Below, piece after piece: positions 36,001 to 42,000 of a DNA stretch of 64,000 nucleotides (positions are counted from its first letter, which is position 1; every line of letters starts with the position of its first letter). The stretch lies in the NCBI RefSeq assembly GCF_054482595.1, contig NZ_CM137008.1; one strand, 5' to 3'. A program made the position numbers.

Positions 36001-39000
36001 AGCACCAGCCTTGCCTTACCACAGCAGAGTTCAAGATGCTCACCGGCAGAATAAACTGCTGTTTGTCCGGTGTTTTCCTTCATTGTCTTGCCCACCGAGA
36101 AGGTGACGTTATTCCCTACATTGACGCTGTAGCCCATTCCCACCATCAGTGATTTATGCAGCCCTACCTGTGAGGACTGCAACAACGCCACCGAGGTATT
36201 CATAATGCCGCCTACCGTCGTCTGATACGCCACACCCACCGTCAGCGCACGAATGATCCCCACCTTTTCAACCTGGTTTGATCCCACTTTGATAATCTGG
36301 TTACTGCCTACCGTTTCCACCTGGTTGACACCAACCGTCTGTATCTGATTAACGCCAATGTTCTGGATCTGGTTATTGGTAACGGTGATCGCCTGGTTGT
36401 TACCTATTTTTTCGGCATGGTTGTTTATCACATCCGTGGTGCGGTTATTCAGCACCTCGGTGTTCATGTTCTTCTGCGCGTGGATGTAGACCTGTTCTTT
36501 CCCTGTCGCATCGTCAAACTTCAGTTCATTAAACCCGCTGCCCTTATAGGTTTTCGAACGAATGGTCATCTGCGTCTTTGTTCCCGGCAGGCTGCCGGGT
36601 GTGCGGTTTTCCTGGTGGTAGGTGCGCCCCATAATGATCGGCTGGTCCGGATCGCCGTTGAGGAAGTCCACAATCACCTCCTGACCCACGCGCGGTATCG
36701 CAAGGTTACCGAATCCGGTGCCTGCCCACGCCTGTGCCACACGGATCCAGCATGAACTGTCCTGGTTTGACGGGTTATAGCGGTCCCAGTTAAATTTCAC
36801 CCGCACGCGGCCATGTTCATCACAGAAGATTTCCTCGCCTGCCGGTCCCGTCACGACGGCGCTCTGCGGGCCGTCCACCAGCGGTTTCAGCAACGGCTGT
36901 GGTCGCCATGTCCGGTCTGCCGGGATTACCGCAAAATGGTTATCCAGCGTGGTGCCTGAACCCCTGCGTCCCGGTACCGCCTGCGGCTGTTCGCCGTGAA
37001 GATCGCTCGCCACCACCTGCCATTCCCGGTTCAGGTTCGCCTGCGGATGCCCCGTCAGCACAATTCGCCGTCCCGGCCATATCTCCGGCGAACGGCTTGT
37101 TCCGCGCGCCACTTCTGCGTTGTTGCGCCAGCCATCCATCTGCCAGCGGGCAAAGTTCTGCCCGTGGGCACCCTTGAAACGTCCGGGGTAGTCATACACT
37201 TCATACTGTGTGCGCTGGTAATCCTGGTACTGGCCTTCCTGATCAAAACGCCCTGCCCAGCCGGGTCGTTTAAAGGTGTAGTCTTTGGTCACCACGGAAG
37301 AAGGGCGGATTTGTGCGCTGTAGCGAAACTGGCTGATGCAGAGGGTGCTTACCTCGGTACGGGTGTTCGGATTCCAGGGGATCTCAAAGGACTCCGGCAG
37401 ATAACGCACGGTATCGCACAGGACCAGGCTCTGGTCGGTACTTTTTTGCGCGTGCTCCTCATAAAAGAAGATGCCTTCCTCCGCCGCCATCCGGCACAGG
37501 AAATCGTAATCAGTCTCACCGTACTGGACACAAAACTCACGGGAAGGATGTGGCTCGCTGAACAGCGGGCTCCACTCGGTCACCCCGTTTTCCTGCAATA
37601 TCGTGCCGAGGATGCTTTCGATGTCCTCATTCTGGAAGATACGGAAGTTCTGGCGCAGCCCTGTGCGCCACAGCGGCGGGCATACCTTCATGCTGTACAG
37701 CTTCTGGTTTTTGTCGTTCTCCCCCAGTTCAAACCAGGTCACCACACCTTTCACCCGGCGCTGTACGTCATCGCCCTGCCATATCGTCAGGTAGGCCATT
37801 TTGTCGAGGATCTGCTGGAATTCAAGGGAGAGAAACTGCTGGCTGACCAGAGAGAGATCGAGGGAAAAAAGCGAAGAGAGTGACTGGTTCAGATGAAAGG
37901 AGACCACCGCAAAAGCATCCGGTGGCAGGCCGTCCACTTCCAGCGTGAAACGTAATCCGGTTGACATAGCAACCTCCGGGGTTAAGGAAAAACAGACAGT
38001 TCGCTGTTAAAGCGGCTGTGACAGTACAGTGTTACGCTTGCGTTCAGGCACGCTACCGCCGAAGTTTCCGGCAGCCGCCATCTCCCGTGAACGTAACCCC
38101 TTACTGACAACCTTTCTTTCTACGGCGTAATACAAAAACAGCATCCGGCCTGATAGCCGGATGCTGTTGGCTTAACTTATGCTTCCAGCGGTGCGCGCCA
38201 GTCGTCGGCACCGGAGGTGCCAGATTTGACGTGTTCCCATTCAATTTTGCGGTAGGCCAGTGAAACTTCGAGCAACTGGGTGAACTCGCGTTTCGCCGGG
38301 TCCTGGCAATGCGGCATATGCAGTTTCATATCGACAATCGTCGAATCAGTCAGGCGGGTAGTGAAATAATGCTCCTGTTTGCCTTCCACAGAGGTACGCC
38401 ACCAGTGAAGTTCAGTGGTTGGCAGCATTTCGCCGGAGGCCAGTGCGTTGTACATCAGCGGAACCGCTTTGTTCAGCGCCACGGTAAAAATGAAAGGCTT
38501 GTGAGCACGCTGACCCGCAGGCTGACCGGACTGAGGATCGGTCGGGACAGTAACGTTATGCAGGAATTCCTGCACCAGCATCTCGTCTTCGTGCCCCTGC
38601 ACATAGATGTTGCCGACAGAATCAGCGGTAAATGCACCTGCAGTAATATTTCCCTGGGTCTGACCAGTGATGGAGATATAACACGGTGTTGGCATTTGTA
38701 AACTCCTTGTTAACGTGGTTAATTACTACTTACAATGACCTGCCGTTAATCCCAGGCAGGCAGATGCAGCTCACTTCACGGAACCGCATCATTTTTCAGT
38801 ATTTTTTACATACAAACCGAGCTAGAATTTACGGTTGTCGTAAAAACTATTTTTAAAATCATTAAATCTCTTATTCAGCAATAACTTAATAATATATATC
38901 TGGATAACCATACCCAACTGTTCAAAGTCCGTATTGCCTCCATAAAATGGCCAAAGCTGAATCATGAATAAATATTGTATTTATCCTTTCTGAATTATCA

Positions 39001-42000
39001 TTTTGATAATTTTTGAGATATTCCTTAAAAATACCCACTTAATCAATCACAAAACAAATATATAAACAAGCAATCATTAGATTAGCTTATGTTTAATAAA
39101 ATTATTATATAATTCAATAAGATACATAAAAAACTCTATATTTAAATTATTGCCATAATACACCTGACGCGAATTGCACAGGTTCATACAATCTATTTAA
39201 CGCTTGCAGAATACCCCTCTTTACGATCGATAAAAAGTCCTTTTATTATTTATTTTGAAGCGTAAAATGCGGGGTGATGAAGGAGTGGTGATTTTATTTT
39301 CACCGCCATCAAGGCGGCATTTCCGATATTTTTTGCGGTACGAATATGCCGTGTTCATGGCCTGTACGAGATAACATGACGGATCACTTTTATGAGCAAA
39401 AAATTTGAAGGCAGCGTCGCGCCTCGCGAACGTATTAATATATCGTATGTCCCAAAAACAGATGGCCAGACGGCTGAAGTGGAACTTCCGCTTAACATGC
39501 TCGTTGTCGGCGATACCGGAAATACGCAGGAAACATCCTCACTGGATGAACGTCAGGCAGTTTCCGTTAACAAGCACAATTTCGGTGCAGTGATGGCTGA
39601 AGCAGCCATTGGCCTCAATTTTACCGTCCCCGCCACGCTGAAGGGAAGCACAACGGACGATGAGCTGAATGTGGCGCTGAATATCAAGTCACTGGATGAT
39701 TTTTCACCAGATAGCGTGGCCCGGCAGGTTCCGGAAGTGAATAAATTGCTGGAACTGCGTGAAGCACTGACTGCACTGAAGGGGCCGATGGGTAACCTTC
39801 CGGCATTCCGTACCCAGCTCCAGGCATTGCTGGAAAATGAAGAGTCCCGCGAGCAGTTGCTCAAAGAAATCGGCCAGGTGAGCAATAAATAACCACCACT
39901 ATTTCATTAAACAGGGTTATCCAGGCATGACGGCACACAAAAATATCTCCGGGACATACCACCTCTCTGTTGCAGACATTCTGCAGGTGGTTTACCAGGT
40001 ATGTTTCAGCCCGTCCGTTGAAATCAACCAGGATGGTGTGGCTGCGCTGATTACAACACTGGATCGCCGTATCAGTGATCTATTGGATGAGATTATCCAT
40101 TTTTGTGAGTTTCAGCAGAGCGCGTCGCACTGGCAGCGCGTACTTCACTGACGGCGAAAAGCCGGTTTCAGAAACACAGCTAAAACAGAAGGATTTTCAG
40201 TATGTCTTTACAGGAAGAGGAACTCGTTTCCAGTCATGCCGGGCAGCCTGAGCAGGCATCGTCGCTGCTTGATCAAATCATGGCACAGACCCGTATTCAG
40301 CCCGGTTCGGAAGGTTATGACGTTGCCCGCCAGGGTGTGACAGCCTTTATTGCCAGCATCCTGCAATCCACTGCATCTGCCGAACCGGTCAATAAACTGG
40401 CCGTGGACAGCATGATTGCAGATATTGATGAACGCATCAGCCGCCAGATGGATGTCATCATCCATGCGCCTGCCTTTCAGCAGGTCGAGTCGTTCTGGCG
40501 CTCACTGAAAACCATGGTGGATCGCGTTGATTTCCGTGAAAACATCAAGGTCAACGTGCTTCATGTCACCAAGCAGGAACTTCTGGAAGACTTTGAGTTT
40601 GCGCCAGAAATTATTCAGTCCGGATTTTATAAGCACGTTTATTCGTCCGGTTTCGGACAGTTTGGCGGTGAACCCATCGCTGCCGTGCTGGGCGCTTATG
40701 AGTTCAAAAATACCGCGCCTGACATGAAACTGCTGCAATACGTCAGTGCCGTGGGCGCAATGGCGCACGCACCGTTCCTGTCCTCCGTTTCCCCGGAGTT
40801 TATGGGGCTGAACTCGTGGACCGAACTGCCTAATATCAAAGATCTTTATGCCATCTTTGAAGGTCCGGCCTACACCAAATGGCGCGCCCTGCGTGACTCG
40901 GAAGATTCGCGCTATTTAGGGCTTACGGCACCCCGCTTCCTGCTTCGCCAGCCCTATTCACCAACAGATAACCCTGTTAAGAACTTTAACTATTACGAAG
41001 ATGTCAGCCAGAACCACGAAGATTATCTGTGGGGTAATACGGCCTGGATGCTGGCATGCAATATCGCAGACAGTTTTGCCAAATACCGCTGGTGTCCAAA
41101 CATTATCGGTCCGCAAAGCGGCGGCGCAGTGAAAGATCTGCCGGTGCATCTGTTCGAAACGATGGGGCAGATTCAGGCCAAAATCCCAACCGAGGTGCTG
41201 GTCACCGATCGCCGCGAATTTGAACTGGCTGAAGAGGGTTTTATCACCCTTACCATGCGTAAAGACTCTGATAATGCAGCCTTTTTCTCTGCAAACTCGG
41301 TACAAAAACCGAAGCACTTTCCGGGAAAAGATGCAGAAACCAACTATAAGCTGGGTACGCAGCTTCCTTATCTCTTCATCATCAATCGGTTAGCGCACTA
41401 CATCAAGGTGTTGCAGCGTGAACAACTGGGGTCATGGAAAGAAAGGAGCGACTTAGAAAGAGAGCTTAATACCTGGATCCGTCAGTATGTTGCCGACCAG
41501 GAAAACCCGCCTGCAGACGTGCGCAGCCGCAAACCTCTGCGCGCTGCCAAAGTTGAGGTTATGGATGTAGAAGGCGAACCCGGCTGGTACCAGGTTGCGC
41601 TAAGCGTGAGACCTCATTTTAAATTTATGGGGGCAAATTTTGAGCTTTCCCTGGTTGGCCGGTTAGACAGGGAGTAACACACCATGTTACCGAATCGGGA
41701 AAGAACCACAGGTTCTCTTTTTGAGCGTATGGAAGCCTCTTCGGCCAGAAACCGGCAGGGAGGCAGTATTCATTCGCTCAGGCAATCCATTCGCCAGAAC
41801 CTACGAAACATTCTTAATACCCGGTCCGGTAGTTGCCGGGGTGCGCCTGAGCTGGGCATTGATGAACCGGAAGGGGCTGAAAACTTCCGCGAATCCATGA
41901 GTCGGGCCATCGAGCAATGTATAGAACGCTATGAACCCCGGATCTCACACGCTGAAGTGCAGGCAGTGGTTTCATCCGCCTCCAGCCCGCTGGATATGAC

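What the first reader, a model, noticed from the sequence alone, without database searches (positions are those of the whole stretch)
38696..39391. Long AT-rich divergent control region between hcp and tssB with a Fur-box-like element
About 690 bp of very AT-rich DNA separates divergent hcp and tssB. It contains GAATTATCATTTTGATAAT (38992-39010), which resembles the Fur consensus GATAATGATAATCATTATC. T6SS clusters in E. coli have been reported to be iron/Fur regulated. The composition also suggests H-NS silencing.
Basis: partly seen in the sequence, partly recalled or inferred. Interest (0 to 1): 0.4.

Follow-up and report, generated by a model that had tools for sequence, protein, structure and literature searches.

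The report
Known H-NS-silenced T6SS promoter, no Fur box
The long AT-rich gap between hcp and tssB is the already described two-way promoter region of the E. coli type VI secretion system 2, which H-NS keeps silent, and the supposed iron-regulator (Fur) site in it scores no better than chance.

Summary
The layout is as described. hcp (38177-38695, minus strand) and tssB (39392-39892, plus strand) diverge across 696 bp of 32.6% GC, with a 26.5% GC core. The 19-mer sits at 38992-39010.

The Fur reading fails. In the stated register the 19-mer matches 5/19 of the consensus, and 12/19 when shifted one base. It is an everted palindrome, AATTATCA-TTT-TGATAATT. A Fur matrix built here from 14 K-12 Fur promoters gives it 8.0 bits. 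Known sites score 7.9-21.4 bits, and 82% of dinucleotide shuffles reach 8.0. The left arm is not conserved in related loci. Published Fur ChIP-exo in O157:H7 Sakai, which carries the identical palindrome, lists no peak within 70 kb.

The H-NS reading holds. The spacer differs at 7 of 696 positions from the O157:H7 "t6sP" bidirectional promoter. That promoter is reported to be H-NS-bound and derepressed in hns mutants.

Fur-regulated E. coli T6SS is the separate T6SS-1 (sci1) cluster.

Eight homologous spacers from Escherichia, Citrobacter and Yokenella keep their length (635-705 bp), AT-richness and a few short blocks. Those blocks are candidate sites for the still unknown activator.

Verdict: already known, low interest.

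The parts
38177..38695 (-). hcp (Hcp2B/Hcp3 type), first gene of the leftward hcp-vgrG-rhs unit
   Evidence: 172-aa ORF. Annotated as an Hcp family effector in strain XH990. The protein is 97-100% identical in all seven related loci checked by tblastn.
38696..39391 (.). 696-bp divergent control region, equivalent to 't6sP' of EHEC T6SS-2
   Evidence: GC 32.6%. 96.5-100% identical in 2228 of 5426 complete E. coli genomes. 7 substitutions versus O157:H7 Z1835 and Sakai. No Rfam match.
38800..39260 (.). AT-rich core, the likely H-NS nucleation and spreading platform
   Evidence: GC 26.5%. TpA step frequency 0.130 versus 0.045 for the whole window. The H-NS role is taken from papers on the near-identical O157 locus.
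38993..39011 (.).
   Evidence: 8-bp arms with a 3-bp spacer; 21% of shuffles contain such a repeat. Fur matrix score 8.0 bits, or 1.9 bits against an AT-rich background. Left arm 17-67% conserved and right-arm GATAA 83-100% conserved across six lineages. Overlaps two -35-like hexamers that face outwards.
38974..39001 (-). Promoter-like site pointing to hcp (ATGATA-16-TACAAT); prediction only
   Evidence: Consensus scan. The variant locus L002 reads GTGACA-16-TATAAT at the aligned position (read directly). The -10 is not consistent across all lineages, so this is weak.
39003..39032 (+). Promoter-like site pointing to tssB (TTGATA-18-AAAAAT); prediction only
   Evidence: Consensus scan. TTGATA is conserved within Escherichia variants. 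The promoter-like count in the region is not above shuffles (6 versus 4.1 +/- 1.8).
38962..38979 (.). Conserved block TCATGAATAAATATTGTA
   Evidence: Mean identity 0.85 across six lineages, against 0.60 for the spacer as a whole.
39206..39271 (+). tssB-proximal conserved blocks (GCAGAATACCCCTCTTT, ATAAAAAGTCCTTTT, AAGCGTAAAATGCG), including a -10-like TAAAAT at 39263-39268
   Evidence: Blocks with identity 0.81-0.84. GTA.AAT is invariant in all six lineages. Its function as a proximal promoter or activator site is inferred.
39392..39892 (+). tssB, first gene of the rightward tssB...tssM structural operon
   Evidence: 166-aa ORF; annotation.

Best explanation
This is the bidirectional promoter and control region of the E. 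coli T6SS-2 island, the one inserted next to the aspV tRNA-Asp gene.

Leftward transcription gives hcp (then vgrG and rhs). Rightward transcription gives tssB through tssM. The roughly 460-bp core of 26% GC, rich in TpA steps, is the kind of DNA on which H-NS nucleates and spreads. This keeps both promoters off in laboratory culture. Expression would need H-NS to be displaced by a signal or activator that has not been identified.

The 19-mer is not a Fur operator. It is an AT-rich palindrome whose arms coincide with two outward-facing -35-like hexamers. Iron and Fur control belong to the separate T6SS-1 (sci1) cluster.

Shown here: the anatomy, the composition, identity with the O157 locus, and the chance-level Fur score. 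Taken from papers: H-NS repression and binding, and the absence of a Fur ChIP-exo peak. Inferred: that the core is the H-NS platform, and where the promoters lie.
For: - The locus is E. coli T6SS-2, with the annotated gene order hcp-vgrG-rhs / tssB-tssC-tssE-F-G-tagH-tssJ-K-L-H-vasI-tssA-tssM.
- The spacer differs at 7 of 696 positions from O157:H7.
- In EHEC, hns deletion raises T6SS transcripts up to 60-fold (PMC5363993). H-NS is reported bound between hcp3 and tssB, and the region is treated as a bidirectional promoter with several start sites (PMC13141884).
- In APEC T6SS2, hns inactivation derepresses clpV2, hcp2A and hcp2B, while iron limitation and fur had no effect (PMC5874247).
- Composition: GC 26.5% in the core and TpA 0.130 versus 0.045.
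- Eight homologous spacers keep a length of 635-705 bp and 29-34% GC despite about 60% sequence identity.
- Fur matrix: candidate 8.0 bits and region maximum 9.0 bits. Leave-one-out scores of 14 known sites are 7.9-21.4 bits. Shuffles reach 8.0 in 82% and 9.0 in 66% of cases.
- Paired-site, hexamer and AT-background Fur models are all at chance.
- Sakai Fur ChIP-exo: no peak between 193,087 and 288,115, with the spacer at 263,438-264,133, and no ECs022x-024x genes in the ChIP-exo or pan-regulon tables.
Against: - I did not read the primary H-NS binding and start-site paper (Kim et al. 2022, J Microbiol 60:928; not held). H-NS binding is therefore cited second-hand.
- The 10-bp H-NS nucleation motif is not enriched (3 sites with at most 2 mismatches; shuffle mean 2.5).
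- The 8.0-bit score overlaps the weakest positive control (fhuE, 7.9 bits), so sequence alone cannot exclude weak Fur binding.
- ChIP-exo could miss a site that is covered by H-NS.
- The APEC fur/iron experiment used a spacer type that lacks this palindrome.
- hns deletion alone does not give full T6SS protein expression (PMC13141884), so silencing is not the whole story.
Confidence: 0.85

Rival explanations
1. The palindrome is a genuine, weak Fur operator that makes T6SS-2 iron-responsive, as in the sci1 cluster. The effect might be visible only once H-NS is removed.
For: - 12/19 match to the consensus in the best register, within the 11-17 range of 14 known sites.
- 14/18 under the three-hexamer model, equal to several known sites.
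- A run of 11-12/19 matches spaced 3 or 6 bp apart between 38987 and 39023.
- The number of sites scoring at least 6 bits in the spacer is mildly high (9 versus 4.3; 3% of shuffles).
- C. youngae has a 12.4-bit match near the aligned position.
Against: - 8.0 bits, or 1.9 bits against an AT-rich background, versus 10-20 bits for known sites.
- 82% of shuffles do as well.
- The hexamer score is reached by 22% of shuffles and the paired-site score by 25%.
- The half-sites are everted (ATTATCA-N3-TGATAAT), not TGATAAT-N-ATTATCA.
- The left arm is not conserved in E. albertii, L002, LF82, Yokenella or the L014 variant.
- No Fur ChIP-exo peak and no regulon membership in Sakai, which has the identical sequence.
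- Neither GATC site (39225, 39382) is near the palindrome, so there is no sci1-like Fur/Dam overlap.
Confidence: 0.05
2. The palindrome has a function unrelated to Fur. It could be the paired -35 elements of back-to-back divergent core promoters, or the operator of another dimeric regulator that counteracts H-NS.
For: - The two arms coincide with -35-like hexamers of outward-facing promoter-like sites.
- The variant locus L002 has better hexamers at the aligned leftward site (GTGACA-16-TATAAT, read directly).
- The right arm TTGATAA is 83-100% conserved.
- The 60-bp segment around it is identical in 1964 of 2228 E. coli genomes.
- The element sits next to the best-conserved central block, 38962-38979.
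Against: - The promoter-like count is not above shuffles.
- The proposed -10 elements are not consistent across lineages (read directly).
- The resulting leaders would be about 270 and 350 nt long.
- The palindromic symmetry is itself not conserved, and such a repeat occurs in 21% of shuffles.
- A control 60-mer is identical in 1741 of 2227 genomes, so the within-species conservation is unremarkable.
- Mapped start sites exist (Kim 2022) but could not be read.
Confidence: 0.2
3. The region is activated directly by CpxR, as shown for the hcp2B promoter of avian pathogenic E. coli.
For: CpxR-P binds the APEC DE719 hcp2B promoter fragment, and cpxR deletion lowers hcp2B, vgrG and xmtU transcripts (PMC6534853). 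The APEC primers map to the LF82-type homologous locus L018.
Against: The APEC/LF82 spacer is a different sequence type. Its hcp gene is about 85% identical, and its spacer is not found by blastn. The segment that the APEC deletion probe removes aligns to a gap in this window's spacer (read directly). No GTAAA-N5-GTAAA match was seen by eye, and the nearest candidate (39210-39224, minus strand) has a 3/5 second half.
Confidence: 0.05

Closest known systems
EHEC O157:H7 T6SS bidirectional promoter 't6sP' between hcp3 and tssB (z0264 region; Kim et al. 2022; Vazquez-Lopez et al. 2026, PMC13141884; Wan et al. 2017, PMC5363993)
   Same: Same chromosomal island, same gene order, and the same 696-bp spacer with 7 substitutions. 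It is H-NS repressed and silent in vitro.
   Different: Nothing in the spacer beyond the 7 substitutions. In this strain tssH carries an internal stop and vasL a frameshift, so the machine is probably inactive whatever the regulation.
EAEC sci1 / APEC T6SS-1 promoter: Fur plus Dam epigenetic switch (Brunet et al. 2011, PMC3145626; Ma et al. 2018, PMC5874247)
   Different: It is a different cluster (T6SS-1). It has two validated Fur boxes, one overlapping the -10 and a GATC site. Here there is no above-chance Fur match, no GATC near the candidate and no Fur ChIP-exo peak. Brunet et al. used the sci2 promoter as a Fur-independent control.
APEC/NMEC T6SS2 hcp2B-vipA2 divergent region (PMC5874247; PMC6534853)
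   Same: Homologous divergent hcp/tssB layout with a 705-bp spacer of 31.5% GC in LF82. It is H-NS repressed and not Fur- or iron-responsive.
   Different: The spacer sequence is largely unalignable. The palindrome is absent, and the CpxR-bound segment is absent from this window.
H-NS-silenced T6SS loci in other enterobacteria (Salmonella SPI-6, as cited in PMC5363993)
   Same: AT-rich control DNA of a horizontally acquired secretion system, silenced by H-NS.
   Different: Here only the spacer is AT-rich. The T6SS genes themselves are 51-56% GC.

Membership tests
Fur operator (Fur box) | Matrix score in the range of validated E. coli sites | tested here: inconclusive
   8.0 bits, against leave-one-out scores of 7.9-21.4 bits for 14 known promoters. 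It overlaps only the weakest one, fhuE.
Fur operator (Fur box) | Score above composition-matched background | tested here: not met
   82% of dinucleotide shuffles reach at least 8.0 bits. The score is 1.9 bits against an AT-rich background, versus 10-20 bits for known sites.
Fur operator (Fur box) | 7-1-7 inverted repeat TGATAAT-N-ATTATCA, or at least three in-phase GATAAT hexamers | tested here: not met
   The arms are everted, ATTATCA-TTT-TGATAAT. The hexamer score of 14/18 is reached by 22% of shuffles.
Fur operator (Fur box) | Both half-sites conserved in orthologous control regions | tested here: not met
   Left arm 17-67% identical across six lineages. The element is absent from the LF82 type.
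Fur operator (Fur box) | Fur occupancy in vivo | tested here: not met
   Published ChIP-exo table for Sakai, which has the identical palindrome: no peak between 193,087 and 288,115, with the spacer at 263,438-264,133.
Fur operator (Fur box) | Iron- or fur-dependent expression of the flanking genes | not testable with these tools
   No ECs023x gene appears in the Fur pan-regulon table, but the Sakai expression sheet was cut when stored. The APEC T6SS2 result was negative but used a different spacer type.
H-NS-silenced promoter region | Extended AT-rich, TpA-rich tract far below genome GC | tested here: met
   26.5% GC over 460 bp, against 52% for the window. TpA 0.130 versus 0.045.
H-NS-silenced promoter region | High-affinity nucleation motif TCGATAAATT | tested here: inconclusive
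   Three sites with 2 mismatches (38939, 39003, 39227). The shuffle mean is 2.5.
H-NS-silenced promoter region | Derepression in an hns mutant and H-NS binding to the DNA | not testable with these tools
   Reported for the O157 locus, whose spacer differs at 7 of 696 positions (PMC5363993; PMC13141884 citing Kim 2022).
E. coli T6SS-2 bidirectional promoter (t6sP) | Lies between divergent hcp-vgrG-rhs and tssB...tssM units of the aspV-linked island and is near-identical to the EHEC spacer | tested here: met
   Annotation. 7 of 696 differences from O157 Z1835 and Sakai.
sci1-type Fur/Dam switch | GATC site inside a Fur box that overlaps the -10 | tested here: not met
   The only GATC sites are at 39225 and 39382, more than 200 bp from the candidate.

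The most novel reading that the evidence does not exclude
The spacer is more than generic AT-rich silencer DNA. Its length (635-705 bp), its AT-richness and a few short blocks are kept from Escherichia to Citrobacter and Yokenella, while the rest drifts to about 60% identity. The blocks are 38962-38979 TCATGAATAAATATTGTA, 39206-39222 GCAGAATACCCCTCTTT, 39230-39244 ATAAAAAGTCCTTTT and 39258-39271 AAGCGTAAAATGCG. They could be the docking sites of the unidentified activator or anti-silencer that switches T6SS-2 on, which published work up to 2026 has not found.
Probability: 0.3. Interest if true: 0.4.

Novelty: already known. Interest (0 to 1): 0.1.

Why it matters
It matters little as a discovery. 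The region, its bidirectional promoter role and its H-NS silencing are published for the near-identical O157:H7 locus.

The useful outcome is negative. Fur and iron control should not be carried over from T6SS-1 to this T6SS-2 promoter on the strength of an AT-rich look-alike.

The conserved blocks listed here are a short, testable list for anyone looking for the natural activating signal of T6SS-2. That signal is still unknown, and its absence blocks functional study of this system in EHEC.

Tried and rejected
- Rfam scan of 37900-39900 at E<=1: no match.
- RNA folds of the tssB leader and the hcp leader: z-scores of -1.7 and -1.9, not compelling. The hcp-leader hairpin (38739-38760) loses a pair in O157.
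- Small ORFs in the spacer (for example 39255-39374): not conserved. Yokenella and C. youngae lack about 53 nt there.
- H-NS nucleation motif: not enriched.
- Promoter-like and terminator-like counts: not above shuffles.
- By-eye comparisons with the ArcA core (GTTAATTA at 38718-38725), a PhoP half-site (TGTTTA at 39091), RcsB-like and SlyA-like strings: none complete or conserved in the related loci. These are leads from memory only and were dropped.
- Transfer of the APEC CpxR site: rejected, because that segment is absent here.
- Within-species conservation of the palindrome segment (1964 of 2228 identical): not distinctive against controls (1741 of 2227; 25 of 1437, where this strain carries private alleles).
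- Sources that could not be used: Kim et al. 2022 and Seo et al. 2014 are not held. No supplements are held for Chen et al. 2007 or Sy et al. 2020. For that reason the Fur matrix was built from K-12 promoters fetched here.
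Full report
**What is there.** The window is E. coli. A 901-bp stretch around the finding is 100% identical to strain XH990 and is present in 2269 of 5426 complete E. coli genomes. From window position 19,000 onward, the window and XH990 differ at only 5 positions over the roughly 40 kb compared.

The annotation of that genome shows a type VI secretion island between yafV/ISAs1 and the tRNA-Asp (aspV)-dnaQ side.
- Leftward unit: hcp (38177-38695), then vgrG, an RHS core protein and a TPR protein.
- Rightward unit: tssB (39392-39892), a small hypothetical gene, tssC, tssE, tssF, tssG, tagH, tssJ, tssK, tssL, tssH, vasI, tssA, tssM, vasL and a second hcp.

This is the T6SS-2 layout of EHEC and APEC (PMC13141884; PMC5874247). 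The spacer at 38696-39391 is 696 bp.

**The observation.**
- The spacer is 32.6% GC and its core, 38800-39260, is 26.5% GC. The lowest 200-bp windows fall to 19.5-22.5%.
- The flanking genes are 51-54% GC and the tssB-tssM operon is 55.8% GC.
- Only 1.6% of 200-bp windows in the 64 kb fall below 30% GC. They lie here, at the island's left edge near 30,000, and at its right end at 58.8-62 kb.
- TpA steps are three times as frequent as in the window as a whole (0.130 versus 0.045).

The anatomy and composition are therefore confirmed.

**The Fur claim: consensus matching.** Shifted by one base (38993-39011) it matches 12 of 19. An unrelated site at 38967 matches 13 of 19, and 25 overlapping registers in the spacer match at least 11.

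The element is a perfect palindrome, AATTATCA-TTT-TGATAATT. Its half-sites face outwards (ATTATCA ... TGATAAT) rather than forming the TGATAAT-N-ATTATCA arrangement found inside real Fur boxes. A perfect 8-bp inverted repeat with a short spacer occurs in 21% of dinucleotide shuffles of this spacer.

**The Fur claim: position weight matrix.** No curated site list was available. I therefore fetched 14 classical Fur-controlled promoters from K-12 MG1655: fepA-fes, fepD-entS, fepB-entC, fhuA, fur, fiu, fhuE, tonB, cirA, exbB, ryhB, fecA, fecI and fhuF. I derived a symmetric 19-bp matrix by iterative refinement. Its consensus came out as exactly GATAATGATAATCATTATC, with 14.1 bits of information.

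| Test | Candidate or spacer | Known sites | Shuffles of the spacer |
|---|---|---|---|
| Matrix score, uniform background | candidate 8.0 bits; spacer maximum 9.0 bits at 38842 | 7.9-21.4 bits (leave-one-out) | 82% reach 8.0; 66% reach 9.0 |
| Matrix score, spacer's own base composition as background | candidate 1.9 bits | 10-20 bits | not run |
| Two sites 6 bp apart | 16.4, not at the candidate | 16.5-38.4 | 25% do as well |
| Three-hexamer model | 14/18 | 11-16/18 | 22% do as well |

The only mild excess is in the number of weak (at least 6-bit) hits, 9 versus 4.3, reached by 3% of shuffles. I attribute this to the non-random A/T-tract structure of natural AT-rich DNA. AT-rich genes at the end of the same island give higher scores, 14.5, 14.0 and 12.8 bits.

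**Comparative evidence.** I collected the homologous spacer from:
- O157:H7 Z1835 and Sakai;
- a Citrobacter-labelled metagenome genome (L014, whose spacer differs from the window's at only a few positions);
- E. albertii;
- a divergent E. coli variant (21AR0303);
- LF82 (the B2/APEC type, onto which the published APEC primers map);
- Yokenella regensburgei and Citrobacter youngae.

All have divergent hcp and tssB, a spacer of 635-705 bp, 29-34% GC and a 200-bp minimum of 18.5-26% GC. No high-scoring Fur match recurs at an aligned position. Top scores are 6-10 bits at scattered places, with one 12.4-bit hit in C. youngae.

Across six lineages the left arm of the palindrome is 17-67% conserved. 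The metagenome variant has ATTATCG there, and LF82 has no counterpart. The right-arm core GATAA is 83-100% conserved. A dimeric operator would need both arms.

**Experimental evidence from papers.**
- Gao et al. 2023 (PMC10164565) mapped Fur by ChIP-exo in nine strains, including O157:H7 Sakai, under iron-replete and iron-starved conditions. Sakai's spacer (263,438-264,133; tssB is ECs_0233 and hcp is ECs_0234) differs from this window at 7 positions and carries the identical palindrome.
- The Sakai peak table goes from 193,075 (dapD-glnD-map) straight to 288,115 (dinB). It does list fhuA, fepA, fes, entS, fepB and entC, so the assay worked.
- No ECs022x, ECs023x or ECs024x tag occurs in the ChIP-exo or pan-regulon tables.
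- In APEC, iron limitation and fur did not change clpV2 or hcp2B, whereas hns inactivation raised clpV2, hcp2A and hcp2B (PMC5874247). That spacer type lacks the palindrome, so the result speaks to T6SS-2 in general rather than to this 19-mer.
- The E. coli T6SS that is Fur-controlled is T6SS-1. In EAEC sci1, two Fur boxes are validated, one overlapping the -10 and a GATC site (PMC3145626). The same holds for APEC T6SS1.
- Here the only GATC sites are at 39225 and 39382.

**The H-NS claim.**
- In EDL933, T6SS transcripts are about 35-fold below the genome average (5.7 versus 198 RPKM) and rise up to 60-fold in an hns mutant, with complementation (PMC5363993).
- Vazquez-Lopez et al. 2026 state that H-NS is bound between hcp3 and tssB. 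They call the region a bidirectional promoter (t6sP) with several start sites, citing Kim et al. 2022.
- They show that replacing it with inducible promoters turns on both units. They also show that hns deletion raises mRNA but is not sufficient for full protein expression or secretion, and that no tested medium activates the native promoters (PMC13141884).

The composition measured here fits this account. The 10-bp nucleation motif is not enriched, so composition rather than a specific motif carries the argument.

**What else is in the spacer.**
- Against a background of about 60% identity, a few blocks stay above 80% across six lineages: the hcp ribosome-binding region and first 20 nt of leader, TCATGAATAAATATTGTA (38962-38979), GCAGAATACCCCTCTTT (39206-39222), ATAAAAAGTCCTTTT (39230-39244), AAGCGTAAAATGCG (39258-39271, with a -10-like TAAAAT whose T, A and AAT are invariant), GTACGAATATGC (39338-39349) and the tssB ribosome-binding region.
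- The palindrome's arms coincide with -35-like hexamers of two outward-facing promoter-like sites. The evidence for these is weak.
- No Rfam family, conserved small ORF or convincingly stable leader structure was found.
- The CpxR-bound segment of the APEC hcp2B promoter (PMC6534853) aligns to a gap here.

**Verdict.** This is a real and correctly located feature with a known identity: the H-NS-silenced bidirectional promoter region of E. coli T6SS-2. The Fur-box reading is not supported by sequence statistics, geometry, conservation or published in vivo binding data. Novelty: already known. Interest: low. The conserved blocks are the only lead worth passing on.

Noticed in passing
window 48932-51670: tssH (clpV) has an in-frame stop at codon 273 in this window, and RefSeq marks it as a pseudogene in XH990. 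The downstream vasL-domain gene (about 57381-58791) is marked frameshifted. The T6SS of this strain is probably not functional.
   Followed up: partly
window 58800-62000: A second AT-rich stretch lies at the right end of the island: hypothetical and DUF1311 genes next to tRNA-Asp, dnaQ and rnhA. It gives the highest Fur-matrix scores in the whole window (14.5 bits at 60598, 14.0 at 61907, 12.8 at 60161). The hit at 61907 lies just upstream of a hypothetical gene on the minus strand. Whether any of these is a real Fur site was not examined.
   Followed up: no
window 37968-38176: The 209-bp hcp-vgrG spacer corresponds to the 'h3R' element described in 2026 for EHEC: a terminator-like hairpin that stabilises hcp mRNA, plus an internal promoter that limits vgrG expression (PMC13141884).
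   Followed up: no
L014-L018, L002 versus window 38177-39892: Hcp protein is 97-100% identical from E. coli to Yokenella and C. youngae, while TssB from the same loci is only 76-77% identical. This is an unusually uneven rate of change across one divergent gene pair.
   Followed up: no
window 39270-39322: About 53 nt of the tssB leader, holding two small hairpins (GGTGA...TCACC and CCGCC...GGCGG), is present in the Escherichia-type spacers but absent in Yokenella and C. youngae.
   Followed up: partly
window 18600-19000: 294 of the 299 mismatches between the window and strain XH990 over the 40.9 kb compared fall in this 400-bp stretch near flhB/flhA. This suggests a local indel or recombination patch, so the window is from a close relative rather than XH990 itself.
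   Followed up: no
window 39927-40151: A conserved 74-aa hypothetical ORF lies between tssB and tssC. It is also annotated in O157 (ECs_0232). Kim et al. 2022 are cited as finding tssB and tssC in separate transcription units.
   Followed up: no
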